From Candidatus Dojkabacteria bacterium (GTDB lineage Bacteria > Patescibacteriota > Dojkabacteria > B142 > WJKM01), in NCBI GenBank assembly GCA_014729085.1, contig WJKM01000006.1:88016-152015 (forward strand): a stretch of DNA of 64,000 bases, read 5' to 3'. The position numbers were made by a program, and so were the translations under genes. Below are positions 39,952 through 49,837 of this stretch, in pieces. The stretch's first letter is position 1. Each line of letters starts with the position of its first letter. The notes beneath the pieces were generated by a model. It was given only the letters and a program-made list of their open reading frames with translations, had not been told where the DNA came from and searched no databases.

Positions 39952-41064
39952 ATGGGTAAGGTTAAAAAACAAAAAACATTTAACTATGAACTTGCACATA
40001 ATGAAAAGAACCATGTTAAAATTAATCAACATTCAATTATTAATTCAATTATTAATAGATTCTCTGTGGGGAAAAAAATTGCAATTGATTTAGGTACAGC
40101 CAATTCACATGTTTTTTTAGAAGGAAAGGGTATTGTAGTCAGTGAGCCAACTGTTGTTGCCTATTCCAAAACAGACAAGAAGATTGTTGCGATTGGATTG
40201 GAAGCTAAAAAAATGTTAGGAAAATCTCCTGGGGATATTATCGTAAAAAGGCCTTTAAAACAAGGTGTAATAGCCAGCTATAAACTTACAGAAGCTCTAC
40301 TGAAAGGTTTAATACAACAAGCTTTAGGTAGATTTATTTTTGTGAAACCAGAAATTATGGTTGCTGTACCTGCTGGTTTGACTTCCGTAGAGGAAAGGGC
40401 GGTTATGGAAGCTGTAAACTCTGCTGGTGCTTCAAAGATATATTTAATTCCAGAGCCAATAGCTGCGGCAATCGGGGCTAAACTTCCAATAAGTTCATCA
40501 TCCGGAAATATGATAGTAAACATGGGAGGAGGCACAGCTGAGATTGCTGTACTTTCTATGAATGGAATTGTAACTTGTATGTCAAAAAGACTAGCAGGAG
40601 ATGCGGTAAATGACTCAATAATATCTTACGTGAAGAAAAAACATAAACTAGTAGTTGGAGAACAAATGGCAGAAAAAGTAAAGATAAGGTTGGGAAGTGC
40701 TATTAAAATGTCAGAACCTTTAAGTATGGAGATTAGGGGAAGTGATTCAACAACTGGCCTCCCAAGAAGCATAGAGTTGGACTCCAACGATATTGTTGAA
40801 CCTATCCGAGATGTAATGAACGAAATAATAAAATCAATTAAGGAAGTATTAGAGTCCACTCCTCCTGAGCTTGCATCGGATATTATTGACAGAGGAATAG
40901 TTTTATCTGGAGGTACATCACTAATTCGTGATATTGATAGATTGTTTAGAGAGGCTTTGGATGTTCCAGCCCATGTTGTCGAAAACCCATTAACTTCTGT
41001 AGTAGAAGGAGTAGCAGAAGCTCTTGATAATATTGATATTTTAAAACGTATTCTAAAAACTTAA
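39952..41064 (+). CDS. mreB: Rod-shape-determining actin homolog MreB, with an N-terminal extension of about 40 aa.
   Basis: 'IAIDLGTANSHVFLEGKGIVVSEPTVVAY' and 'NMGGGTAEIAVLS'. Actin-fold phosphate loops are present. Confidence 0.88.
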   Translation: MGKVKKQKTFNYELAHNEKNHVKINQHSIINSIINRFSVGKKIAIDLGTANSHVFLEGKGIVVSEPTVVAYSKTDKKIVAIGLEAKKMLGKSPGDIIVKRPLKQGVIASYKLTEALLKGLIQQALGRFIFVKPEIMVAVPAGLTSVEERAVMEAVNSAGASKIYLIPEPIAAAIGAKLPISSSSGNMIVNMGGGTAEIAVLSMNGIVTCMSKRLAGDAVNDSIISYVKKKHKLVVGEQMAEKVKIRLGSAIKMSEPLSMEIRGSDSTTGLPRSIELDSNDIVEPIRDVMNEIIKSIKEVLESTPPELASDIIDRGIVLSGGTSLIRDIDRLFREALDVPAHVVENPLTSVVEGVAEALDNIDILKRILKT

Positions 41065-41066
41065 AT

Positions 41067-42035
41067 TTATAGTTTAAAAAACATTTTTAAAATTTTTTTT
41101 GGGATTTGAAGGCTTTCTTTCATGTCTGCAAAGTAGTGTATATAAATATTCGGACATCCATTATTTTCGTTTATATATCCTCCTACTTTTTTGTAGGATT
41201 CATATATATTTTCAGTAATATAATCAATACCACACAGATTCAACTTGCTGTATTTGAAAACCTCAAGAAACATTTTCTTTGTATCAGGATGAATTTTTTT
41301 AATATCTATTCTTTTTGTTTCTCCTCCTAATGCGAAGTTACAGGTTGGACGTACTTCAACTTTATGCCCTTTTTTTAATACAGAGTTCAAGTTTAGCTTT
41401 TGATCTTGAAGGAAGTTTTCCACTGTTTTATCTACTTGAATTAATTTTAGTCTCAATTTTTCTCTTTCTTTGTTTTTTGACGCTATTAATTCTTTGATTG
41501 ATTTTTCTCCGTCTCCAATTACATATGGGGGAATTCTTTTTAGTACATCTAGAATCTTATTCCGGTAGATTAAAATTCGGTAATCTGTTCCTTTTACATA
41601 GTCTTCAACCAAAACCTTTTTCTTACCTATTAAAGAAACCTCTTGTATAGCAGGCTCGATTTCATCTGTGGAGTTTATGTTGACGGTAACACCTTTTCCT
41701 AAACTGGAATCCTCAGGTTTAATAACTACTGGAAAGTTTTGCTCACAATAACCAATGATTTTGTCGGTTTCGTCTATTTCGAACAATTTTTGTTTTGGGA
41801 CGGGAAGATCGTTCTTGTGTAGTATTCTGTAGGTTAGATGTTTGTTTTCAGCTGTCCGAATCGGGACATAGTTATTTACACCTAAAGTTATTCCTCGAAT
41901 ATATAGTTCCTTTTCATCATTATATATTCTACAGTAAGAATATTCCTTATCATATATTTCAATATTCAGTTTTAGCTTCTCGGCTGCAGAAAGATAAATA
42001 TCAGTATCAATATACGAAACTTTTTTTGCAATCAT
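41067..42035 (-). CDS. ATP-grasp amidoligase (RimK/cyanophycin-synthetase-like), paralog A, 322 aa.
   Basis: 'FPVVIKPEDSSLGKGVTVNI' (K-P-x-x-G-x-G ATP loop), 'YRILIYRNKILDVLKRIPPYVIGDGEKSIKELI', and 'NLCGIDYI' (Mg-binding region). Confidence 0.7.
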   Translation of the reverse strand: MIAKKVSYIDTDIYLSAAEKLKLNIEIYDKEYSYCRIYNDEKELYIRGITLGVNNYVPIRTAENKHLTYRILHKNDLPVPKQKLFEIDETDKIIGYCEQNFPVVIKPEDSSLGKGVTVNINSTDEIEPAIQEVSLIGKKKVLVEDYVKGTDYRILIYRNKILDVLKRIPPYVIGDGEKSIKELIASKNKEREKLRLKLIQVDKTVENFLQDQKLNLNSVLKKGHKVEVRPTCNFALGGETKRIDIKKIHPDTKKMFLEVFKYSKLNLCGIDYITENIYESYKKVGGYINENNGCPNIYIHYFADMKESLQIPKKILKMFFKL

Positions 42036-42041
42036 ATTGTA

Positions 42042-43010
42042 TTATTTAAAATATAGACTTAAGATTTTCATTGGAATTGTTATATTGTCTAGTTTATCTG
42101 CAAAATGGTGGATGCTTATTCCAGGATTATAGTTTACTTCATTTACACCAGAGGTAATTTCTTTATATGGTTTTTTGATGTCTGGAGATATGTAGTCTAT
42201 ACCGCAATGGTCTAAAAATAAGATTTTCTGTATTTTTTTGAAGAGATGCAGATTTTCTTTAGGTACTTCGTGTATATTTATTCTTCGGACCTCTCCTCCT
42301 TTTGAAAAATTACAGGAACTTCTAAGATAGATTTTAGAGCCTGAAGAGGGAATAGTTTTAAGGTCATATCCTTGTAAACTGATAAATTCATTTAAATGCT
42401 CATCTATAACTATTTTCGGCATAATTTTTTCTGTTCGGGAGTGATTTTTATCAAGAATTAATTCTTCTACTGTATTGTTGCCATTCCCTGTTATATAAGC
42501 AGGGATTCTTTCGAGAATATCAATAATCTTGCCTTGAAAAACTAAAATTCTATAATCTTTTCCTTTTATATGTTTTTCTAAGATCAATCTTTGCTTTCCC
42601 ATATCTTCAATAATTTTAATTGCGACATCTAGTTCTTCAGGATTTTGTATATTTGCAGTAACACCTTTTCCACATACTCCTGTTACTGGTTTAACCACAA
42701 CTGGAAAATTATTATTAGCAAGATTATGCATTTGATCTTTGTAATTAATATCAAAAACTTTACAGAAAGAGGGAGTAGGAATATTATTCTTAGTAAGAAA
42801 TTTATGTGTAGTATACTTATCTTTTGATATTCTACATGCTGAAATACTATTTATTCCCAGAGCAGCGTTTTGTATTAAAAGGTATTTTTTACCATTTCCT
42901 ATTTTGCATATACTTCGTTGAGTATCAAGTATCTCAAAATCTAGTCCAATTTCTTCTGCAGCCATTATATATAAATTGGTATGCCTACTTTCTGTAAAAG
43001 GTTTAATCAT
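42042..43010 (-). CDS. ATP-grasp amidoligase, paralog B, 322 aa, arranged in tandem with paralog A.
   Basis: 'FPVVVKPVTGVCGKGVTANI', 'YRILVFQGKIIDILERIPAYITGNGNNTVEELI' and 'DHCGIDYI'. Same length and collinear motifs with paralog A. Confidence 0.7.
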   Translation of the reverse strand: MIKPFTESRHTNLYIMAAEEIGLDFEILDTQRSICKIGNGKKYLLIQNAALGINSISACRISKDKYTTHKFLTKNNIPTPSFCKVFDINYKDQMHNLANNNFPVVVKPVTGVCGKGVTANIQNPEELDVAIKIIEDMGKQRLILEKHIKGKDYRILVFQGKIIDILERIPAYITGNGNNTVEELILDKNHSRTEKIMPKIVIDEHLNEFISLQGYDLKTIPSSGSKIYLRSSCNFSKGGEVRRINIHEVPKENLHLFKKIQKILFLDHCGIDYISPDIKKPYKEITSGVNEVNYNPGISIHHFADKLDNITIPMKILSLYFK

Positions 43011-43073
43011 ATGTCCTAATTAACTTAAATAAAGTGATTATTTATGAGATTCTCCTGAAATAAGGAGTATTAT

Positions 43074-45521
43074 TTATAAAGAGTAGTTTGCTTTTAGTAC
43101 TTTTTTTACATCTTTGATTGAAATAGGGGTGGAGGAGTCTGATGGTTTAGTAAATTCCATTAACTCATTTGGGTTTGCCTTCCCATTCCATAAATAGCCT
43201 AGGGATTTTGGGTTATTAACAATATATTGCCCAGTTTTTATGGCCCATTTCAAATAAAGATCTTTGGTAAAAGCTCCACTACTAGATGTATCTGATATAC
43301 CTCTCTTGAATCTTACTGTGTAGTTCCAAGCTTTGTTTTCGTCTTGGATGTATTTATATGCTTTGTTGTAAACAGCTTTAAAATCCGAAATCAAGGAGGT
43401 GTTCATTAATATAATAAGTAAGCTTGGGATTTTAAAGACTTTGTCTTTTTTTCTTGAGTGGCCTACTATTGTAGCTAGCCCTTCTTCTGTAATTATATAA
43501 CGTGGGGTACCTATTTTCCAAATTAATTCCTTCTTTTTCTTCCCATTATGCAGCCGTAATAAGTGTGTGAGTATTTCATGTCCTATTGCATTGTTTAGTT
43601 GATCTTCACTCCTACCACGGTTTTCTGGTAGTTTTATTCTTCCAGAACTTTTTCCTATAGACATTTTAGTTCTCTTATCGCTAAATTTAATAGGATAATC
43701 GAGTTTGTATTTGTCGAGAGCTTCCTGCATTCTTTTTCCTACTTCTCGGGCAGGGATCTCTGGATTCTTATCTATTGTTATTTTATGATTCTTAAGGATT
43801 TTTCTAGCAAGTCTCCTTATTTTACGGTTAGGTTGCCCAAAAAGTTCAATTGATCTTTGAGTAAAGGTATGTGGGTCATGTCCAATTGTTTCCATTAAAT
43901 ATACCATTTTTTTATATTCTTTAATTTTGTTTCTATAGATTCGTCCTATACTGTCAAATGGAGGATTTAAAAGTTCTAGTTTGTCAAGTATTTTATCTGG
44001 ATCAAATTTTAAAGGTTTGTATTCAAATTGTGGATTATAATCACAATTTTTCTTGAAAAACTTTTCTTTTTCTTCTTTAACATTCCGAGGTCTTAATGCA
44101 GGAATAATGCTTAATATTTTATTGAATTCTTCGAATGCTTCATCCAATTTTTTAATTTTAGTTGGTTTGAGCAATGCATAAATATTTTCTTTTAATTTAC
44201 TTTCCTCTGGACCCTCGATTTTTTTAACGTCAATTATGAAATTCCCTAGATCTTTTCTTCCTATTGACAGATTATAACCTTTGATTTGATCATTTATTAT
44301 CCTGCATTCACAATCAATTGTTTGATTGCCTAATTTTATTTTTATAAATACTATCTCGTACTCACCTTCCTCTACCTTTTCTTCCAGAATGCCAAGTTTC
44401 ATAGCTATTTGGGAACTAATGATCGAGGTTCTTCGGCTTGTATCAACCAAACTCATTGTTTGAACTTTTTTATCTTTGAAAATTATAGTCGCGGGCATTA
44501 TATTACTAATAATTTCTTTTCCAGAGATCCTTTCTATTTTTTCTTCAACTTCACCACCAAACAGATCTTTTCCTATTCTTATACCATGATCAGAATTTTT
44601 AACTTCCAGACCTTTAGCTTTATACAGTCTCCAAGCAAGGCCTCTTCTGTTTACTATTTGAATAGATAATCCGGGCCTTGCATTAAGTTCTACAATGACA
44701 GGTCCTTTTTCATTATCTATAAGGAAGTCAACAGCTCCAAAATTAAGTCCGGAAGCGTCAATAGCTTTAGAGGCGTATTTTAAGATTTCGTTCCAATGGG
44801 GAATTTCTAGTCCCTGGAATGGTAGTTTTGTTCCAGGTACAAATTCAATCGGATATCCTTTCCCCCCACTTCCTTTTCCATAAGTAGAAGTAGTAGTAAT
44901 GCCGCTTGCAAGGTCTATACCAGTACCAACAGCGCCTTTTATCATATTAGCCTTTCCTTTTGATTCTTTTGTAGGAAATCGAACATAGGCCATTATAGGA
45001 ATTTTATTGTATGTTACAACTCTTATATCGGGAGTTCCTTTATAAGTGTAGTTTTTTAGGTCATCATGTGTTCGTATTCTTTCCTCAAAAAAAGCTTGAT
45101 CCGGTTCGTTTCTAAGGGAATATTTTCCATCAAGTATTTCCAGGGCCATGCTTTTAATTTGATATGCAGATACTCTGCTACCATCGGATTTAATCCAATT
45201 TCCGTTTTTGTCTCTATTATAAAAAATTTCGATACCCGCTCCTTGTGCCCCCTGTACTGGTTTCATGACAAAACTTGCAGGTAATTTGTTCCAGTTGAAT
45301 GCTTCAAATTCTGAATAATCCTTTATGACTCCCAGTAATTCTGGTGAGGGAATATTTTCTGAAGCCAATATTTTTTTTGTAAGTAATTTATCGTCAGCAA
45401 TTTTCCTGCCTCTGGTATTACCTTCTTTTTGTATGAATAGTAGATTTCTCGCATTTTGTCCGAGAACCTTATTTCTATTCCTCAGTATTTGAAAGATTGT
45501 CATCTTCGTTTTTAGGATCAA
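43074..45521 (-). CDS. Tri-domain fusion: RimK-type ATP-grasp ligase, retropepsin-like (PF05618-type) protease, and MATCAP/DUF1704-like HExxH metallocarboxypeptidase.
   Basis: N-terminal domain: 'NARNLLFI...ADDKLLTKKIL', 'SFVMKPVQGAQGAGIEIF' and 'GAVDFLIDNEKGPVIVELNARPGLSIQ'. Middle domain: 'SLVDTSRRTSII...SIGRKDLGNFIIDV'. C-terminal domain: 'AIGHEILTHLL' (HExxH) and 'EEGLATIVGH' (QEGLA-type motif). Confidence 0.7.
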   Translation of the reverse strand: MILKTKMTIFQILRNRNKVLGQNARNLLFIQKEGNTRGRKIADDKLLTKKILASENIPSPELLGVIKDYSEFEAFNWNKLPASFVMKPVQGAQGAGIEIFYNRDKNGNWIKSDGSRVSAYQIKSMALEILDGKYSLRNEPDQAFFEERIRTHDDLKNYTYKGTPDIRVVTYNKIPIMAYVRFPTKESKGKANMIKGAVGTGIDLASGITTTSTYGKGSGGKGYPIEFVPGTKLPFQGLEIPHWNEILKYASKAIDASGLNFGAVDFLIDNEKGPVIVELNARPGLSIQIVNRRGLAWRLYKAKGLEVKNSDHGIRIGKDLFGGEVEEKIERISGKEIISNIMPATIIFKDKKVQTMSLVDTSRRTSIISSQIAMKLGILEEKVEEGEYEIVFIKIKLGNQTIDCECRIINDQIKGYNLSIGRKDLGNFIIDVKKIEGPEESKLKENIYALLKPTKIKKLDEAFEEFNKILSIIPALRPRNVKEEKEKFFKKNCDYNPQFEYKPLKFDPDKILDKLELLNPPFDSIGRIYRNKIKEYKKMVYLMETIGHDPHTFTQRSIELFGQPNRKIRRLARKILKNHKITIDKNPEIPAREVGKRMQEALDKYKLDYPIKFSDKRTKMSIGKSSGRIKLPENRGRSEDQLNNAIGHEILTHLLRLHNGKKKKELIWKIGTPRYIITEEGLATIVGHSRKKDKVFKIPSLLIILMNTSLISDFKAVYNKAYKYIQDENKAWNYTVRFKRGISDTSSSGAFTKDLYLKWAIKTGQYIVNNPKSLGYLWNGKANPNELMEFTKPSDSSTPISIKDVKKVLKANYSL

Positions 45522-46200
45522 TTAGTAAGTCATAGAAACGGAAATATTCAGTTAATCTTAATCCTGTGAATTTCCCAATAAATAGGTTTATAGGGATTAA
45601 TAGTATTATAACCCAAGGATAATTAAGGAGAATATTTTGTAGGGATTCATTTGCGATAATTGTTAAACATATACTTGTTATCAAAATACTTCTAATGATA
45701 ATTTGAAAAGTCTTTTTTATACCACTTTTAATATGCACTTTGAGTAATTGTTCTGAAATTATTATTAGGAGTACTACATTTAAAGGATTTATTTGAACTA
45801 ATAGTTGGTCTGAAAGTTTACGTGCTATTGCCATTACAATGAAGATAGCAATTGTTGATGAGATTAAAATTAGGGATATTTTAGGATAATAATGTAATTG
45901 AATTTTTTTCGTAAGTAGATATGAGATAAAAATTGCTGCATAGGATGAAAAAATCAAGAGTGTACCATAGCTAATTCCTAGAAACAGGTCAGGTTTATTA
46001 TTGAAAGTCAATGTACTTCCTAAGGAGTAAAAAAGGAAAATGGTAGCTATAGTTGCATATATGCTTATCGTTCTTAAACCAATCAAATATCTAAAGATAT
46101 TAATAACAGTCATTATCAAAGGAATAGAAAGGAGAAAGCTTAAAGTAATTATTGTTTCTTCTCCTCCTTGTAGGAGGGTTTCAATTAAAGGATGATACAT
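45475..46200 (-). CDS. Polytopic membrane protein with about 7 TM segments (7TM_transglut-like partner). Its 3' end overlaps the start of the fusion gene by 47 nt.
   Basis: Seven hydrophobic segments in 241 aa. First gene of the minus-strand ATP-grasp operon. Confidence 0.6.
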   Translation of the reverse strand: MYHPLIETLLQGGEETIITLSFLLSIPLIMTVINIFRYLIGLRTISIYATIATIFLFYSLGSTLTFNNKPDLFLGISYGTLLIFSSYAAIFISYLLTKKIQLHYYPKISLILISSTIAIFIVMAIARKLSDQLLVQINPLNVVLLIIISEQLLKVHIKSGIKKTFQIIIRSILITSICLTIIANESLQNILLNYPWVIILLIPINLFIGKFTGLRLTEYFRFYDLLIDPKNEDDNLSNTEE

Positions 46201-46417
46201 GACCAGAGATATAAAAAATATTGTTCACTTTGAGGGCTCTTAAGCACATAATCCTCGCTACGCTCGGAATTATTTGCCTTCATCCTGTAAAACAGGATTT
46301 CGGCAGCTTGTACAGAAAAATGTAGATTATTAATAATTTACATTTTCCGTAACAATGAACCGTTTTATCTAGAGAAAAGATTAAATAAATATAATCAATT
46401 ATATTATAAATACAGAA

Positions 46418-46450
46418 AGACCCCAAATATTCTTGGGGTCTTCTTTATTA
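46418..46450 (-). terminator. Rho-independent terminator downstream of rplL.
   Basis: Minus-strand read: 'gaccccaa gaatat ttggggtc' followed by 'tttctgtattta'. Confidence 0.7.
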
Positions 46451-46468: not shown

Positions 46469-47032
46469 TTATTTGAGTTCAACTTTTGCTCCGGCTTCTT
46501 CCAATTGTTTCTTTAATTCTTCAGCTTCTTCTTTTCCAACACCTTCTTTAATTGGTTTTGGTGCGCTTTCTACTAATTCCTTAGCGTCTTTCAATCCTAC
46601 TCCTGTAATTGCCTTTACAGCCTTAATTACTTGAATTTTATTACCGCCTGCTTCTGCAAGAACAACGTCAAATGTAGATTGTTCCTCATCTTCTCCTTTG
46701 CCACTTTCTGCTGGTGCAGCCATAACTGCAGCTGGAGCAGATGCAGAGACTCCAAATTTTTCTTCTAGAGCTTTGACTAATTCGGATAATTCGAGGACAG
46801 TCATATTTTCAAGCATATCGGCAATTTTTTTTGAGTCTCCTTTAAGCTCTACTTCTTTTTTCTCTTCTTTCTTCTCCTCTTTGTCTTTACTTGAAGTATC
46901 CTTTTTGCTTTTACTTTCTTTTTCCTCTTTCTTTTCTTCCTTCTTTTGTTCTTCCTCCTTTTTTACATCCTTGTCATCCTTTTTCTTTTCCGCAGCTTCT
47001 GCTGCTTTTTTATCTTTTTTATCGTCTGCCAT
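46469..47032 (-). CDS. rplL: 50S ribosomal protein L7/L12 with a K/E-rich N-terminal extension of about 65 aa.
   Basis: Canonical core '[18 protein letters not shown]...[67 protein letters not shown]'. It is preceded by '[59 protein letters not shown]'. Confidence 0.88.
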
Positions 47033-47097
47033 AATATTTTAATAATAAATAATATAATTTAGATCTTAGTTTTTCAGATCTAGATTTTACTGAAAAA

Positions 47098-47622
47098 TTA
47101 TTTTTCTTTTTGTTCTTTTATTGCATTAACTATGTTTCCAAAGTTTCTTATGGTTCCTGCCAAAACATTTACAAAGCCATTAATTGGGGCATTCATAGTT
47201 CCAATAGTTTGAGCCAGCATTACTTCGTAACTTGGTAATGTAGCGAGTTCTAAGATTTCTTCAGCTTCTACTTTTTGATCTTCAATATAACCAAATTGAA
47301 ATTTAAGTATATCCTTATTTTCATCAATAAAATTTTTAATTACCTTTGCAGATTCACTAGTTTTATCGCTTGAGAATACTACGGCTTTTGGGTTTTGTTC
47401 TATGTCGTCTTCTTCTATTGAAAATTCAGATAAAGCAAGTTTAAAAAGTGAATTTTTTATTACATTAAAAGATGAATCTAAGTCAAAAAGAGATTTTTTG
47501 ATCTCAACTGCTTGGTTAGCAGTTAAAGCATTTTGTTCCAATACAAAAAATGCTTTTGAATGTTTAAGTTTTTCAACATATTCATTTACAAGTTGTTTTT
47601 TTTGTTCTCTAGTTCTTGCCAT
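47098..47622 (-). CDS. rplJ: 50S ribosomal protein L10.
   Basis: 'MARTREQKKQLVNEYVEKLKHSKAFFV' fits the L10 N-terminus. Gene order is rplJ then rplL. Confidence 0.85.
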   Translation of the reverse strand: MARTREQKKQLVNEYVEKLKHSKAFFVLEQNALTANQAVEIKKSLFDLDSSFNVIKNSLFKLALSEFSIEEDDIEQNPKAVVFSSDKTSESAKVIKNFIDENKDILKFQFGYIEDQKVEAEEILELATLPSYEVMLAQTIGTMNAPINGFVNVLAGTIRNFGNIVNAIKEQKEK

Positions 47623-47651
47623 ATTATTTAATTAAAAAAGTAAATAATTTT

Positions 47652-47677
47652 TTGACCAAATAAAAAACCGTCTTTGC
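47652..47677 (-). terminator. Hairpin plus U-run attenuator/terminator in the rplJ leader, between rplA and rplJ.
   Basis: Minus-strand read: 'accgtctcgcaaagacggt' followed by 'tttttt'. Confidence 0.6.
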
Positions 47678-47801
47678 GAGACGGTATATTAAGAATACAA
47701 CTAAGTATTTTCTTATACGTCTCGGCTAGTCTTATTTTCTGCTAGCTGTCTTTGACGAATTTGAACCTTTTGGGCTCAAAATTGTTGTTAATTATATCTT
47801 T

Positions 47802-48500
47802 TTATTTAATTTCTTTCAACACATCGGAAGTATCAACCTTTATTGCAGGCCCCATTGTTGCAGATAGTATTACATCCTTAAGTCTTTGGGGTCCATAAAT
47901 TCTTGTTTCTGTATAGGTTTTTTTCAGAAATGCAATTAAATTTTCTTTTTGTTCATCCTTTTTCATATCAAGTTTAGCAATTTTTGCTTTAATGGATCCG
48001 TGATCATCTACTTTGAAATTCATTTTCCCTGCTTTATAATTTTTTATGACCTTCTCTAAATCCTCAGTTACAGTATTATTTTTGGGATTTGGCATCAAGC
48101 CTTTCGGTCCGAGAACTGGGCCTAGTGAGGCTACTTTAGGCATTACATTAGGAGTTGCAATTAAAATATCAAACTCGCTATATCCTTCTTTTAGTTTTTC
48201 AATTAATTCATCTAACCCAACTTCGTCTGCTCCTGCCTCCTTTGCTATTTTTTGATCTTTCTTTTCGGCAATTACTACAATTTTCTTTTCTGTGTCCATT
48301 TGGTGGGGCAGAGTAATACTACCTCTAACTGAATCATTTTTCCGTTTAGAAGGTATATTAAAATTTACTACTAAATCCAATGACCCTACAAAATTTGAAT
48401 AGGAAGTTTTGTTTACAAGCTCTATAGCTTCATCGACTGAATAATGTTTTTTCCTGTCTATGAGTTTTAAGCTTTCTTTATATTTTTTTGACCTATGCAT
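47802..48500 (-). CDS. rplA: 50S ribosomal protein L1.
   Basis: 'YSVDEAIELVNKTSYSNFVGSLDLVVNFNI' L1 signature. Confidence 0.88.
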   Translation of the reverse strand: MHRSKKYKESLKLIDRKKHYSVDEAIELVNKTSYSNFVGSLDLVVNFNIPSKRKNDSVRGSITLPHQMDTEKKIVVIAEKKDQKIAKEAGADEVGLDELIEKLKEGYSEFDILIATPNVMPKVASLGPVLGPKGLMPNPKNNTVTEDLEKVIKNYKAGKMNFKVDDHGSIKAKIAKLDMKKDEQKENLIAFLKKTYTETRIYGPQRLKDVILSATMGPAIKVDTSDVLKEIK

Positions 48501-48617
48501 TGTAATTATTTAAAAAATTAAACCTCCTAATTTAGCTTTCCAGATCTAAAAGAAATTGATCCAGCTAAATTAGTACAAATGGTGATTATAATAATTTGTG
48601 GTTGTTGAAATGAGATA

Positions 48618-49049
48618 CTATTCTTTCTCAATTTCCAGTCCCATACTTTTGGCAGTTCCTTCAACAATTTTCATTGCAGATTCAATATTTTTTGTGTTCA
48701 AGTCGTCAATTTTCTTCTCTGCAATATCACGTATTTGCTTTTTTGTAAGTTTTCCAACTTTGATTTGATTTGGTTCAGCGGAACCTTTTTTTAATCCTAT
48801 TTCTTTTTGAATCAAGTTTGCGGTTGGAATACCTTTGAGTTCAATTTCAAAGGTTCTATCTTTATATACTTTAAGTTCGCAGCGAACTTGATAGCCCATA
48901 TGCTTTTTTGTCATATCGTTAAATCTATTACAAAAATCCTGGATGGGTACTCCGTGTTGCCCCAAGGCAGGCCCAATTGGCGGTGCAGGAGTTGCCTTAC
49001 CAGCTTCAATTTGTAATTTCATTATTGTTTTTATTTGTTTTTTTGCCAT
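48618..49049 (-). CDS. rplK: 50S ribosomal protein L11.
   Basis: 'KLQIEAGKATPAPPIGPALGQHGV' L11 N-terminal signature. Confidence 0.9.
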   Translation of the reverse strand: MAKKQIKTIMKLQIEAGKATPAPPIGPALGQHGVPIQDFCNRFNDMTKKHMGYQVRCELKVYKDRTFEIELKGIPTANLIQKEIGLKKGSAEPNQIKVGKLTKKQIRDIAEKKIDDLNTKNIESAMKIVEGTAKSMGLEIEKE

Positions 49050-49086
49050 AACATTTACAAAAATTATTTTAATTCAGAATTTAAGT

Positions 49087-49629
49087 CTATAATTTAGTCA
49101 CTTGCAGAAAGTCTAGTACAATAGGCGTTTCTCTTCCAAAAACAGTTAGTAAAACTTTTACTTGTCCTTTGTCTGGATTTATTTCACTGATAGTTCCCAT
49201 AAAATCCTTGAATGGGCCGTCGGTTACCTTCACAGCGTCGTTCACTTCGAATGAGGTTTGGAAGGAAGGCTGTTTAACCTCCATATATGCCATAATACCT
49301 TTCACCTTTTTTTCATTGAGAGGAGTAGGTTTTCGATTTGTCCCAACGAAACCTGTAACTCCTTGAGTGTTCTTAACAACCCTTGAGGTATTATCATTCA
49401 TCTCCATCTGAATGAGAATATAGCCTGGAAATATCTTTTCTTCCACCTTTTTTTTCTTTCCGCTCTTAACAACAACTTTTTCTTTGGTAGGTACTAGTAC
49501 CTCGGGCATTTTATCTTCCAAATTATTTGCTTTAATTCTCTGCTTAATATTATTTGCTACAGTTTTTTCCTGACCAGCATATGACTGTACGATGTACCAT
49601 TTTAAATTTTGATTCTTTTCCTCACTCAT
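49087..49629 (-). CDS. nusG: Transcription antitermination factor NusG.
   Basis: 'KWYIVQSYAGQEKTV' NGN domain. C-terminal KOW 'NDAVKVTDGPFKDFMGTISEI'. Confidence 0.88.
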   Translation of the reverse strand: MSEEKNQNLKWYIVQSYAGQEKTVANNIKQRIKANNLEDKMPEVLVPTKEKVVVKSGKKKKVEEKIFPGYILIQMEMNDNTSRVVKNTQGVTGFVGTNRKPTPLNEKKVKGIMAYMEVKQPSFQTSFEVNDAVKVTDGPFKDFMGTISEINPDKGQVKVLLTVFGRETPIVLDFLQVTKL

Positions 49630-49651
49630 CTCAGAAAAATATATTAATAAT

Positions 49652-49837
49652 TTATAAATTTGAAATTAGATATGTTCTTGCTGTTATAAATCCTATATCT
49701 ATCAGTCCAATAATAAAAGTTGCTAAAACAATAAATAATATCACTAAAGAACTGTAGTATACCAATTCTTTCTTACTTAACCATTCAATCTTTTTGGCTT
49801 CTTCAATTATCGATTTAATAAATTTAATAATATTCAT
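49652..49837 (-). CDS. secE: Preprotein translocase subunit SecE.
   Basis: 61 aa with a single C-terminal TM helix. Sits in the conserved tRNA-Trp / secE / nusG order. Confidence 0.8.
   Translation of the reverse strand: MNIIKFIKSIIEEAKKIEWLSKKELVYYSSLVILFIVLATFIIGLIDIGFITARTYLISNL

What the first reader, a model, noticed from the sequence alone, without database searches (positions are those of the whole stretch)
46469..47032. Ribosomal protein L7/L12 with a K/E-rich N-terminal low-complexity extension of about 65 residues
The canonical L12 N-terminal dimerisation/L10-binding helix, hinge and C-terminal factor-binding domain are all present. They are preceded by '[69 protein letters not shown]'.

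The L12 N-terminus docks on L10, so an extension of more than 60 charged residues there is unusual and would protrude from the stalk base. It also sits immediately downstream of the ATP-grasp operon. Whether this charged segment is a ligase substrate or mimic is pure speculation, but it is a cheap test.
Basis: seen in the sequence. Interest (0 to 1): 0.5.

Follow-up and report, generated by a model that had tools for sequence, protein, structure and literature searches.

The report
Ribosomal stalk protein with charged tail
A candidate-phylum bacterium (Dojkabacteria) makes its ribosomal stalk protein bL12 with a real, translated, roughly 65-residue lysine/glutamate-rich floppy tail at the N-terminus. 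It is the extreme case of a variable-length tail found across this lineage and a few others, it is probably a passive charged "bristle", and it has no detectable link to the neighbouring ATP-grasp genes.

Summary
ORF 46469-47032 (minus strand, 187 aa) is a complete bL12: the N-terminal domain starts near residue 66, followed by hinge and C-terminal domain. Ahead of it lie about 65 residues that are 75% charged.

The tail is translated:
- M1 is the only start codon upstream of the L10-binding helix.
- Only this frame is open across the tail.
- The genome almost never uses Shine-Dalgarno sites.
- Relatives all keep 'MA[DE][DE]KK' at a fixed 33-65 nt after rplJ, while the low-complexity stretch varies.

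The window has the longest tail among the 120 closest relatives. At least 12 other bL12 clusters, from several phyla, carry 40-80-residue E/K/A/P/T tails.

The tails are near-neutral, unusually well-mixed polyampholytes, neither RNA-binding nor ER/K-helix patterned. The tail DNA holds imperfect short purine repeats, suggesting slippage.

The ATP-grasp idea is not supported. An Rlo-like cassette does follow rplL throughout Dojkabacteria, but it lies behind an intrinsic terminator. It also occurs next to a nearly tail-less bL12, and it is absent next to long-tailed bL12 in other phyla.

Verdict: a real but modest architectural variant; function unproven.

The parts
46469..47032 (-). rplL: full bL12 coding sequence (187 codons plus stop), last gene of the secE-nusG-rplK-rplA-rplJ-rplL row
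   Evidence: ORF list. Pfam L12_N and L12 C-terminal domain. TIGR00855 at 149.7 bits against a cut-off of 84.4. An identical protein is in NCBI as Candidatus Dojkabacteria L7/L12 (P0001).
46853..47032 (-). Low-complexity K/E/D-rich tail, residues 1-60: conserved 'MADDKK' start followed by the variable polyampholyte
   Evidence: Residues 1-65 hold 25 K and 24 D+E, so 75% are charged with net charge +1. DNA is 59% A and 26% G, with imperfect 9/12/15/30-nt repeats. AF2 predicts a helix at 3-44 with pLDDT 65-72 and disorder at 46-60. Charges are better mixed than in 99.5% of shuffles.
46835..46852 (-). Conserved junction 'VELKGD' (residues 61-66) between the variable tail and helix alpha1
   Evidence: A junction-like motif is found in 80 of 120 relatives. 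Variants such as (V/I)(E/K)L(K/T/S)... occur in WWE3, Gracilibacteria, Omnitrophota and Planctomycetia L12.
46703..46837 (-). bL12 N-terminal dimerisation and L10-binding domain (residues 66-110; helices 66-76 and 79-93), running into the Ala/Pro-rich hinge
   Evidence: Pfam PF16320 matches residues 68-110. AF2 places helices at 66-76 and 79-93, with a disordered hinge at 94-120.
46472..46672 (-). bL12 C-terminal factor-binding domain (residues 121-187)
   Evidence: Pfam PF00542 matches residues 121-187, E=2.1e-30. AF2 pLDDT is about 84-92.
47033..47097 (-). 65-nt AT-rich rplJ-rplL spacer with no Shine-Dalgarno site, which is the normal start context in this genome
   Evidence: Sequence. Only 1 of 54 ORFs has an SD-like motif. 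The spacer is 33-51 nt in seven Dojkabacteria relatives regardless of tail length.
46416..46443 (-). Intrinsic-terminator hairpin (12-bp stem, then a T-rich run) just after the rplL stop, separating rplL from the downstream cassette
   Evidence: Terminator scan. Equivalent strong hairpins follow rplL in L003, L004, L086, L087, L088 and L091.
47098..47622 (-). rplJ (uL10, 174 aa), the docking partner. Its C-terminal helix alpha8 has the same length as in Thermotoga maritima.
   Evidence: Pfam and NCBIfam L10 matches. The alignment of residues 100-173 to residues 106-179 of 1zav_A has no gaps. Three bL12 dimers, and therefore six tails per ribosome, are an inference from this.

Best explanation
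The gene encodes a normal bL12 whose translation starts at the distal ATG (47032). The protein therefore carries a tail of about 65 residues ahead of the L10-binding helix.

Nature of the tail. It is a highly charged, near-neutral, well-mixed polyampholyte. It is intrinsically disordered or at most transiently helical. It has no defined fold and no RNA-binding character.

Origin. It arose by in-frame expansion of short purine-rich (GAA/AAG/AAA) repeats. The expansion lies between two fixed anchors: the conserved N-terminus 'MA[DE][DE]KK' and the conserved junction 'VELKGD'. This makes it the extreme end of a length-variable tail present throughout Dojkabacteria. Similar tails recur in several other uncultivated lineages.

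Placement (inferred). The bL12 N-terminus sits at the solvent-exposed end of the dimerisation bundle on uL10 helix alpha8. This uL10 is long enough for three dimers. About six such tails would therefore project from the stalk base as a hydrated charged brush.

Selection (inferred). It appears to act on composition (charged, non-sticky, evenly mixed) rather than on sequence or length. The most likely role is therefore passive: solubilising, excluding volume, or simply tolerated, rather than a specific binding or catalytic function.

Neighbouring genes. The tail is not functionally coupled to the neighbouring Rlo-like ATP-grasp/peptidase cassette. That cassette is a separate transcription unit in conserved synteny.

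Shown: the tail is real and in frame, the start is conserved, the length varies, and the composition and the dissociation from the cassette hold. Inferred: disorder, six copies per ribosome, slippage origin, passive role.
For: Start and translation:
- M1 is the only ATG/GTG/TTG upstream of the N-terminal domain, and a stop lies two codons upstream.
- Only this frame is open across the tail.
- The genome lacks SD sites (1 of 54 ORFs), and M1 has the usual AT-rich context.
- The most common N-termini among 99 extended relatives are MADE, MAEE and MADD. Tail length varies from 17 to 76 residues before the 'MTVLE' motif.
- The rplJ-rplL spacer stays 33-65 nt whatever the tail length.
- In L001 the distal start of a 185-aa bL12 overlaps the rplJ stop.

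Specificity: this is the only strongly K/E/D-rich segment among the 54 ORFs of the window.

Physical nature:
- 75% charged, net charge +1. Pooled tails are K 24%, E 24%, A 12%, T 9%, with net charge from -12 to +5.
- Charge mixing is 0.018, against 0.086 +/- 0.038 in shuffles.
- AF2 gives only moderate or low confidence across the tail.

Repeats in the DNA.

Recurrence elsewhere:
- Omnitrophota, Planctomycetia and Actinomycetota-labelled MAGs carry similar tails.
- At least 12 clusters at 50% identity have tails of 40-80 residues.

Stoichiometry: uL10 aligns without gaps to T. maritima uL10 over helix alpha8.

Dissociation from the cassette.

Literature: bL12 is listed among ribosomal proteins that are 'large in CPR', uncharacterised, with a caveat about start codons (PMC9297842).
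Against: - No protein-level data exist for this uncultivated organism, so the N-terminus is inferred only.
- AF2 predicts a 42-residue helix (residues 3-44) at pLDDT 65-72, so an ordered helical rod cannot be excluded for this particular tail.
- A tail is present in nearly all Dojkabacteria, its ends are conserved, and it recurs in several phyla. This hints at a positive function that a 'passive bristle' may understate.
- Codon usage in the tail does not differ from background, so it gives no independent signal of translational selection.
- The geometry of the bL12 N-terminus on uL10 rests on my recollection of the T. maritima L10-L12 complex. It was not modelled here.
Confidence: 0.65

Rival explanations
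1. The charged stretch is an untranslated, purine-rich leader. Translation starts at an internal Met (M73 or M77) and gives a normal-sized bL12.
For: An AGGAG lies upstream of M73. M77 is nearly invariant among relatives, as part of the conserved 'MTVLE' motif. Purine-rich DNA is poor in stop codons: I estimate about a 2.5% chance of 69 open codons from the composition.
Against: - The AGGAG is 19 nt from M73, and this genome does not use SD sites (1 of 54 ORFs).
- Starting at M73 removes 7 residues of helix alpha1, since Pfam and TIGR profiles align from residue 66-68. Starting at M77 removes 11.
- The residue equivalent to M73 is not Met in 30 of 99 extended relatives.
- A leader would not keep a conserved 'MADE/MAEE' peptide, a constant distance from rplJ, and in-frame indels in every relative.
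- The other two frames contain stops.
Confidence: 0.04
2. The tail is a substrate, docking site or mimic for the neighbouring ATP-grasp ligase/peptidase cassette. This would be a RimK-RimB-like or tubulin TTL/MATCAP-like writer/eraser acting on the ribosomal stalk.
For: - The cassette follows rplL in 8 of 8 Dojkabacteria loci reached from the bL12 side. It does so in 24 of 42 loci reached from the ligase side.
- The ligase matches the RimK-related TIGR02291 family and is fused to a MATCAP or RimB-like peptidase domain.
- RimK/RimB modify ribosomal protein bS6 (PMC11957051).
- A stand-alone MATCAP gene sits inside the stalk operon in L090.
Against: - A strong terminator hairpin separates rplL from the cassette in all seven loci examined.
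- The cassette sits beside a virtually tail-less bL12 ('MAELKGD', L091) and beside 24 bL12s with only 22-30-residue N-termini.
- Long-tailed bL12 genes in other lineages have rpoB or unrelated genes beside them and no cassette within the flank.
- 18 of 42 cassette loci have no rplL nearby.
- The cassette is equally syntenic with mreB, and it includes a 7TM membrane protein.
- The characterised Pseudomonas rlo operon gives osmotic-tolerance and cell-shape phenotypes, not ribosomal ones.
Confidence: 0.05
3. The driver is at the mRNA level. An A-rich, structure-poor 5' coding region would boost initiation in an SD-less genome, helping bL12 reach its multi-copy excess over uL10 (six copies inferred here). 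The protein tail would be a by-product.
For: The genome lacks SD sites. bL12 is needed in several-fold excess over uL10. The tail DNA is 85% purine, and the -30..+120 region folds weakly at -11.2 kcal/mol, third weakest of 36 genes.
Against: - The initiation region proper (-30..+45) folds at -9.8 kcal/mol, rank 29 of 36. It is more structured than most genes, because the T-rich leader pairs with the A-rich coding run.
- About 200 nt is far more than a ribosome footprint.
- Many relatives manage with 4-15 extra residues.
Confidence: 0.08
4. The tail has a specific structural role. It could be a rigid charged single alpha-helix (ER/K-type) spacer, or an arm that binds rRNA or translation factors and changes stalk geometry or factor recruitment.
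For: AF2 predicts one continuous helix over residues 3-44. Several relatives have helix-friendly EAK-type repeats such as 'AEAKAEAKAEAK'. A tail is retained in almost all Dojkabacteria.
Against: - Opposite-charge i/i+3 and i/i+4 pairs are not enriched: 36 opposite against 36 same, with 60% of shuffles scoring at least as high.
- The dominant KKEE period puts like charges four residues apart.
- pLDDT is only 65-72, and residues 46-60 fall below 50.
- Other long tails contain regular prolines, such as 'EEPKKEEPKK', or are purely acidic (P0187, P0195, P0231).
- Net charge near zero or negative argues against rRNA binding.
- Sequence and length are not conserved.
Confidence: 0.12

Closest known systems
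Canonical bacterial bL12 (L7/L12), e.g. Thermotoga maritima or E. coli, bound to uL10 helix alpha8
   Same: Same two-domain architecture (N-terminal dimerisation/L10-binding domain, Ala/Pro hinge, C-terminal factor-binding domain) and same rplJ-rplL gene order. The core is 60-70% identical to ordinary bacterial bL12.
   Different: Canonical proteins have 12-15 residues before the 'MTVLE'-type motif; this one has 76. The extra residues are a low-complexity polyampholyte plus a conserved 'VELKGD' junction.
Enlarged CPR ribosomal proteins noted by Tsurumaki et al. 2022 (RNA 28:1041; PMC9297842)
   Same: [quoted passage not shown]
   Different: The paper gives no description of the bL12 addition. 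Added here: the start is supported, the tail is length-variable, its composition is defined, it also occurs outside CPR, and the window is the extreme case.
Other long-tailed bL12 clusters (e.g. P0175, P0183, P0187, P0195, P0231, P0260; loci L074, L037, L019, L020, L008)
   Same: N-terminal E/K-rich tails of 40-100 residues that begin 'MA(D/E)E..KK' and end just before helix alpha1.
   Different: Different lineages (Omnitrophota, Planctomycetia and Actinomycetota-labelled MAGs, plus unnamed ones). Different repeat units, some proline-containing and some purely acidic. No ATP-grasp cassette nearby.
RimK/RimB modification of ribosomal protein bS6, and the related Pseudomonas rloABC operon
   Same: The downstream genes encode a RimK-related ATP-grasp (TIGR02291-like), a 7TM RloB-like protein and a fused peptidase. 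This is the same logic of ligase plus trimming peptidase.
   Different: - No evidence that bL12 is a target.
- The 7TM protein lacks the inactive transglutaminase domain: the match covers only positions 310-506 of the RloB profile, at 39.6 bits against a cut-off of 900.
- In the window the peptidase is MATCAP-type and fused to the ligase.
- Scores fall below the curated cut-offs.
Archaeal/eukaryotic stalk proteins P1/P2 (aP1)
   Same: From my own knowledge: these stalk proteins also carry K/E/A-rich flexible low-complexity segments, on multiple copies attached to the uL10/P0 helix.
   Different: They are not homologous to bL12. Their charged segment is a C-terminal hinge leading to a conserved factor-binding peptide, whereas here the charged segment is N-terminal and ends in no recognisable motif. 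This is a resemblance in composition only, and it was not tested.

Membership tests
bL12 (Ribosomal_L12; TIGR00855) | N-terminal dimerisation and L10-binding domain | tested here: met
   PF16320 matches residues 68-110, E=7.5e-19. AF2 places two helices at 66-76 and 79-93.
bL12 (Ribosomal_L12; TIGR00855) | C-terminal factor-binding domain and a whole-protein score above the curated cut-off | tested here: met
   PF00542 matches residues 121-187, E=2.1e-30. TIGR00855 scores 149.7 bits against a cut-off of 84.4.
bL12 (Ribosomal_L12; TIGR00855) | Flexible Ala/Pro/Gly hinge between the domains | tested here: met
   Residues 94-120 read '[26 protein letters not shown]'. AF2 shows them as non-regular, with pLDDT 40-59.
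bL12 (Ribosomal_L12; TIGR00855) | Encoded directly after rplJ in the rplKAJL row | tested here: met
   secE-nusG-rplK-rplA-rplJ-rplL lie on the minus strand at 49837..46469.
ER/K charged single alpha-helix (SAH) domain | Enrichment of oppositely charged residues at i/i+4 (and i/i+3) along a long helix | tested here: not met
   36 opposite pairs against 36 same-charge pairs. 60% of composition-preserving shuffles score at least as high.
ER/K charged single alpha-helix (SAH) domain | Confidently predicted isolated long helix, conserved among relatives | tested here: inconclusive
   AF2 predicts a helix at 3-44, but pLDDT is 65-72 and residues 46-60 are disordered. Long tails in other clusters contain periodic prolines.
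Substrate of a RimK/RimB-type or TTL/MATCAP-type ligase-peptidase pair | Co-transcription, or strict co-occurrence, of the modified segment with the enzymes | tested here: not met
   A terminator lies between the genes in 7 of 7 loci. The cassette sits beside a tail-less bL12. Long tails occur without the cassette. 18 of 42 cassette loci lack rplL.
Substrate of a RimK/RimB-type or TTL/MATCAP-type ligase-peptidase pair | Direct evidence of added residues on the protein | not testable with these tools
   This needs intact-mass or peptide mass spectrometry of bL12 from the organism or from a reconstituted system.
RloABC system (for the neighbouring cassette, not the finding itself) | RloB: inactive transglutaminase domain fused to 7TM; RloC: ATP-grasp; RloA: secreted retropepsin-like peptidase | tested here: not met
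   - Only the 7TM part of RloB is present (profile positions 310-506 of 508; 39.6 bits against a cut-off of 900).
- The ligase scores 229 bits against a cut-off of 314 for TIGR02291.
- In the window the peptidase is a fused MATCAP/QEGLA domain rather than a retropepsin.
- The cassette is therefore Rlo-like, not a member.

The most novel reading that the evidence does not exclude
The Rlo-like ATP-grasp ligase/peptidase cassette, fixed beside rplJL throughout Dojkabacteria, could post-translationally add and trim amino acids on the stalk protein bL12, either on its acidic/lysine-rich tail or on another site. In one genome a MATCAP gene even lies inside the stalk operon. This would be a bacterial ribosome counterpart of RimK/RimB on bS6, or of the tubulin TTL/MATCAP code. 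The variable tail would then be the evolving acceptor platform.
Probability: 0.04. Interest if true: 0.8.

Novelty: new variant of a known kind. Interest (0 to 1): 0.3.

Why it matters
bL12 is the only multi-copy ribosomal protein, and it recruits every translational GTPase. Its N-terminus is the part that anchors it to the ribosome.

This work shows that whole lineages tolerate, or use, 10-80 extra charged residues there. With the six copies per ribosome inferred here, that adds up to about 45 kDa of disordered mass at the stalk base. This sets a boundary condition for models of stalk assembly. It also gives a natural series of tail lengths for testing whether disordered "brushes" affect factor recruitment.

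It also settles a caveat in the CPR ribosome literature: for bL12, the longer protein is not a start-codon artefact.

In practice the finding is a modest curiosity. There is no new fold, no new enzyme, and no demonstrated function.

Tried and rejected
1. Internal start with an RBS. Rejected: the genome has SD-like motifs before 1 of 54 ORFs, the AGGAG is 19 nt from M73, and M73 is not conserved.

2. ER/K single-helix pattern. Not supported by charge-pair statistics.

3. mRNA-unfolding explanation. The start region of rplL is more structured than most genes in the window.

4. Codon-usage signal in the tail (AAG/GAG enrichment to avoid poly-A slippage). No difference from background.

5. Genome-contig scan with the bL12 core. 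It served instead as a background sample of bL12 N-termini.

6. First metagenome scan with the single ATP-grasp protein found nothing. The second, using a six-sequence alignment, worked.

7. The Iyer et al. 2009 amidoligase paper could not be read because it is not held. Statements about it are from memory and are not used as evidence.

8. Literature searches found no description of bL12 N-terminal tails beyond the one-line listing in PMC9297842.

9. Pfam found no domain in the tail.

Full report
**What is there.** The window is 33.8% G+C. Its minus strand carries secE, nusG, rplK, rplA, rplJ and rplL in the usual order.

The flagged ORF (46469..47032, minus strand, 187 aa) is rplL. The identical protein is deposited as 50S ribosomal protein L7/L12 of a Candidatus Dojkabacteria (WS6, candidate phyla radiation) genome (P0001).
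- Pfam places the bL12 N-terminal domain at residues 68-110 and the C-terminal domain at 121-187.
- NCBIfam TIGR00855 aligns residues 66-187 to profile positions 5-125 of 125, at 149.7 bits against a cut-off of 84.4.
- They hold 25 K and 24 D+E in 65 residues, so 75% are charged with net charge +1.
- The best 30-residue K/E/D fraction is 0.87. No other ORF of at least 100 aa in the window exceeds 0.57, so this is not a genome-wide bias.

**Is the tail translated?** Five lines of evidence say yes.
- M1 is the only ATG, GTG or TTG upstream of the N-terminal domain. An in-frame stop lies two codons before it. The next Mets (M73, M77) would delete 7 or 11 residues of helix alpha1, which the family profiles align from residue 66-68.
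- The lack of a Shine-Dalgarno site before M1 means nothing here. Only 1 of 54 ORFs in the window has an SD-like motif at a usable distance, and starts normally sit in AT-rich sequence, as M1 does.
- Only the bL12 frame is open across the tail. The other two frames have 2 and 5 stops.
- Comparison with relatives is the strongest evidence. Among the 120 closest database relatives, 99 have an extended N-terminus. Most begin 'MADE', 'MAEE', 'MADD' or a near variant. Typical ones then run through a K/E/A/T-rich stretch of very variable length and rejoin at a junction-like motif found in 80 of the 120: 'VELKGD(A/S)[23 protein letters not shown]'. The number of residues before 'MTVLE' ranges from 17 to 76. 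Ordinary bacteria have 12-15.
- The rplJ-rplL spacer stays at 33-65 nt whatever the tail length. In L001 the distal start of a 185-aa bL12 overlaps the rplJ stop. A leader would not behave like this. The residue equivalent to M73 is not Met in 30 of the 99.

**How unusual is it?** The window has the longest tail of the 120 closest relatives. The median before 'MTVLE' is 25 residues, and only six sequences exceed 60. Long tails are nevertheless recurrent.
- In a sample of 80 bL12 loci from species-representative genomes, K/E-rich N-terminal tails of 40-100 residues appear in MAGs labelled Omnitrophota, Planctomycetia and Actinomycetota, and in unnamed bacteria.
- An exhaustive search of 1.84 billion cluster representatives found at least 12 clusters at 50% identity with tails of 40-80 residues.
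- Tsurumaki et al. [quoted passage not shown] They do not describe the addition, and they caution that N-terminal additions depend on start calls (PMC9297842).
- I found no other description.

**What kind of polypeptide is it?**
- Pooled tails are K 24%, E 24%, A 12%, T 9%, D 6%, S 5%, with almost no aromatic residues or arginine. Net charge runs from -12 to +5. They are polyampholytes, not basic RNA-binding arms.
- In the window's tail the charges are far more evenly interleaved than chance: segregation index 0.018 against 0.086 +/- 0.038, with 99.5% of shuffles more segregated. That is the signature of an expanded, non-collapsing chain.
- AlphaFold2 with a 60-sequence alignment gives a confident C-terminal domain (pLDDT about 84-92) and a moderately confident N-terminal domain (about 69-83). 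It shows a disordered hinge and a helix over residues 3-44 at only pLDDT 65-72, and residues 46-60 fall below 50.
- The pattern that defines ER/K single helices is absent: 36 opposite-charge against 36 like-charge i/i+3 and i/i+4 pairs.
- Other long tails carry periodic prolines ('EEPKKEEPKK') or are purely acidic. A rigid helix is therefore not the conserved property. Composition is.
- The tail DNA is 85% purine, with imperfect 9-, 12-, 15- and 30-nt repeats. This fits growth and shrinkage by in-frame slippage between the two conserved anchors.

**Placement on the ribosome (inferred).** The window's uL10 aligns to T. maritima uL10 (PDB 1zav chain A) without a gap through the C-terminal helix, residues 100-173 to 106-179. 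From my knowledge of that structure, this helix binds three bL12 dimers. Six tails per ribosome, roughly 45 kDa at 7.5 kDa each, would then emerge at the stalk base.

My best reading is a hydrated charged brush that is either useful in a non-specific way (solubility, excluded volume) or merely tolerated. Selection would keep it charged and non-sticky.

**The ATP-grasp neighbours.** With respect to transcription, rplL is upstream of these genes, not downstream. They are:
- a 7TM_transglut membrane protein (45475-46200);
- an 815-aa fusion of an ATPgrasp_ST / TIGR02291 'alpha-L-glutamate ligase-like' domain with a MATCAP (QEGLA) metallopeptidase domain (43074-45521);
- two ATP-grasp proteins resembling cyanophycin synthetase and RimK (42042-43010 and 41067-42035).

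The nearest characterised system is the Pseudomonas aeruginosa rloABC operon. It is related to rimK/rimB, but its phenotypes are hypo-osmotic tolerance, cell shape, biofilm formation and antibiotic resistance (PMC11957051).

The adjacency is striking in one respect.
- All 8 Dojkabacteria loci reached from the bL12 side have the 7TM gene and the ligase directly after rplL.
- 24 of 42 metagenome loci reached from the ligase side have rplL upstream.

Four observations argue that this is inherited synteny rather than a functional link to the tail.
- A strong hairpin followed by a T-run lies after rplL in all seven loci examined.
- The cassette sits beside a bL12 that starts 'MAELKGD' (L091). Every cassette-adjacent bL12 in the metagenome set has only 22-30 residues before the motif.
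- Long-tailed bL12 genes in other lineages are followed by rpoB, or have no cassette in the flank.
- The cassette is just as constantly flanked by an opposite-strand mreB. 18 of the 42 cassette loci have neither rplL nor mreB nearby.

I put the substrate or mimic idea at about 5%.

**Other rivals.** An mRNA-level explanation (an unstructured A-rich start region to boost bL12 output) is not supported. The -30..+45 region of rplL folds at -9.8 kcal/mol, rank 29 of 36 genes, because the T-rich leader pairs with the A-rich coding run. Codon choice in the tail does not differ from background.

**Verdict.** The tail is the extreme member of a lineage-wide, length-variable, compositionally constrained N-terminal extension of bL12. 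Similar tails recur in several other, mostly uncultivated, lineages. Its function is unproven, with a passive polyampholyte brush the most likely reading. The link to the ATP-grasp genes is not supported. It is a new architectural variant of a very well-known protein and of moderate-to-low interest. The conserved Rlo-like cassette beside the stalk operon is the more intriguing by-product.

Noticed in passing
window 41067-46200 (minus strand); loci L003, L004, L006, L086-L088, L091, L092-L171: An Rlo-like cassette is fixed between rplL and an opposite-strand mreB across Dojkabacteria. It consists of a 7TM_transglut protein lacking the transglutaminase domain, then a TIGR02291-like ATP-grasp ligase. 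The ligase is fused to a MATCAP domain in the window, L003, L091 and L099, and to a RimB-like retropepsin domain in most other loci. Extra RimK/cyanophycin-synthetase-like ligases or a Mur ligase are added variably.
   Followed up: partly
L090 5778-7223 (opposite strand); L125, L131-L133, L137-L141, L146, L150, L153, L157, L163, L170: A stand-alone MATCAP-domain gene lies between rplA and rplJ in one Dojkabacteria genome. Where the ligase carries a RimB-like domain, a separate MATCAP gene often sits on the opposite strand next to mreB, so both peptidase types co-occur.
   Followed up: no
whole window (54 ORFs of at least 100 aa): Only 1 of 54 ORFs has a Shine-Dalgarno-like motif 3-12 nt before its start. 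Starts lie in AT-rich sequence, so this organism appears to initiate without SD pairing.
   Followed up: partly
proteins P0121 (593 aa), P0122 (803 aa), P0123 (692 aa), P0124 (1056 aa), P0126 (953 aa): Large proteins carry 6-9 separate matches to the bL12 C-terminal domain. These tandem L12-CTD repeat proteins out-scored genuine bL12 in the exhaustive search. Their origin and function were not examined.
   Followed up: no
window 39952-41064 (+): The MreB homologue (370 aa) has about 40 residues ahead of the Pfam MreB_Mbl match, which starts at residue 41. This is a second N-terminally extended housekeeping protein, though its extra residues are not K/E-rich.
   Followed up: no
window 45475-45521: The called TTG start of the 815-aa ligase-MATCAP gene overlaps the end of the 7TM gene by 47 nt. 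The gene boundary is tight in relatives as well (1 nt gap to 29 nt overlap in four loci). This suggests either translational coupling or a start that lies further downstream.
   Followed up: no
L004 4907-6997 (opposite strand): A 696-aa ORF with no Pfam hit is inserted between rplA and rplJ in another Dojkabacteria genome. This is the same position as the MATCAP gene of L090.
   Followed up: no
L017, L073 (WWE3), L023 (Gracilibacteria), L015, L008 (Omnitrophota), L010 (Planctomycetia), L042: A short conserved N-cap of the form (V/I)(E/K)L(S/T/K)xxxx precedes bL12 helix alpha1 in several CPR and non-CPR phyla. This suggests a widespread bL12 subtype with a slightly longer N-terminal domain, independent of the low-complexity tail.
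   Followed up: partly
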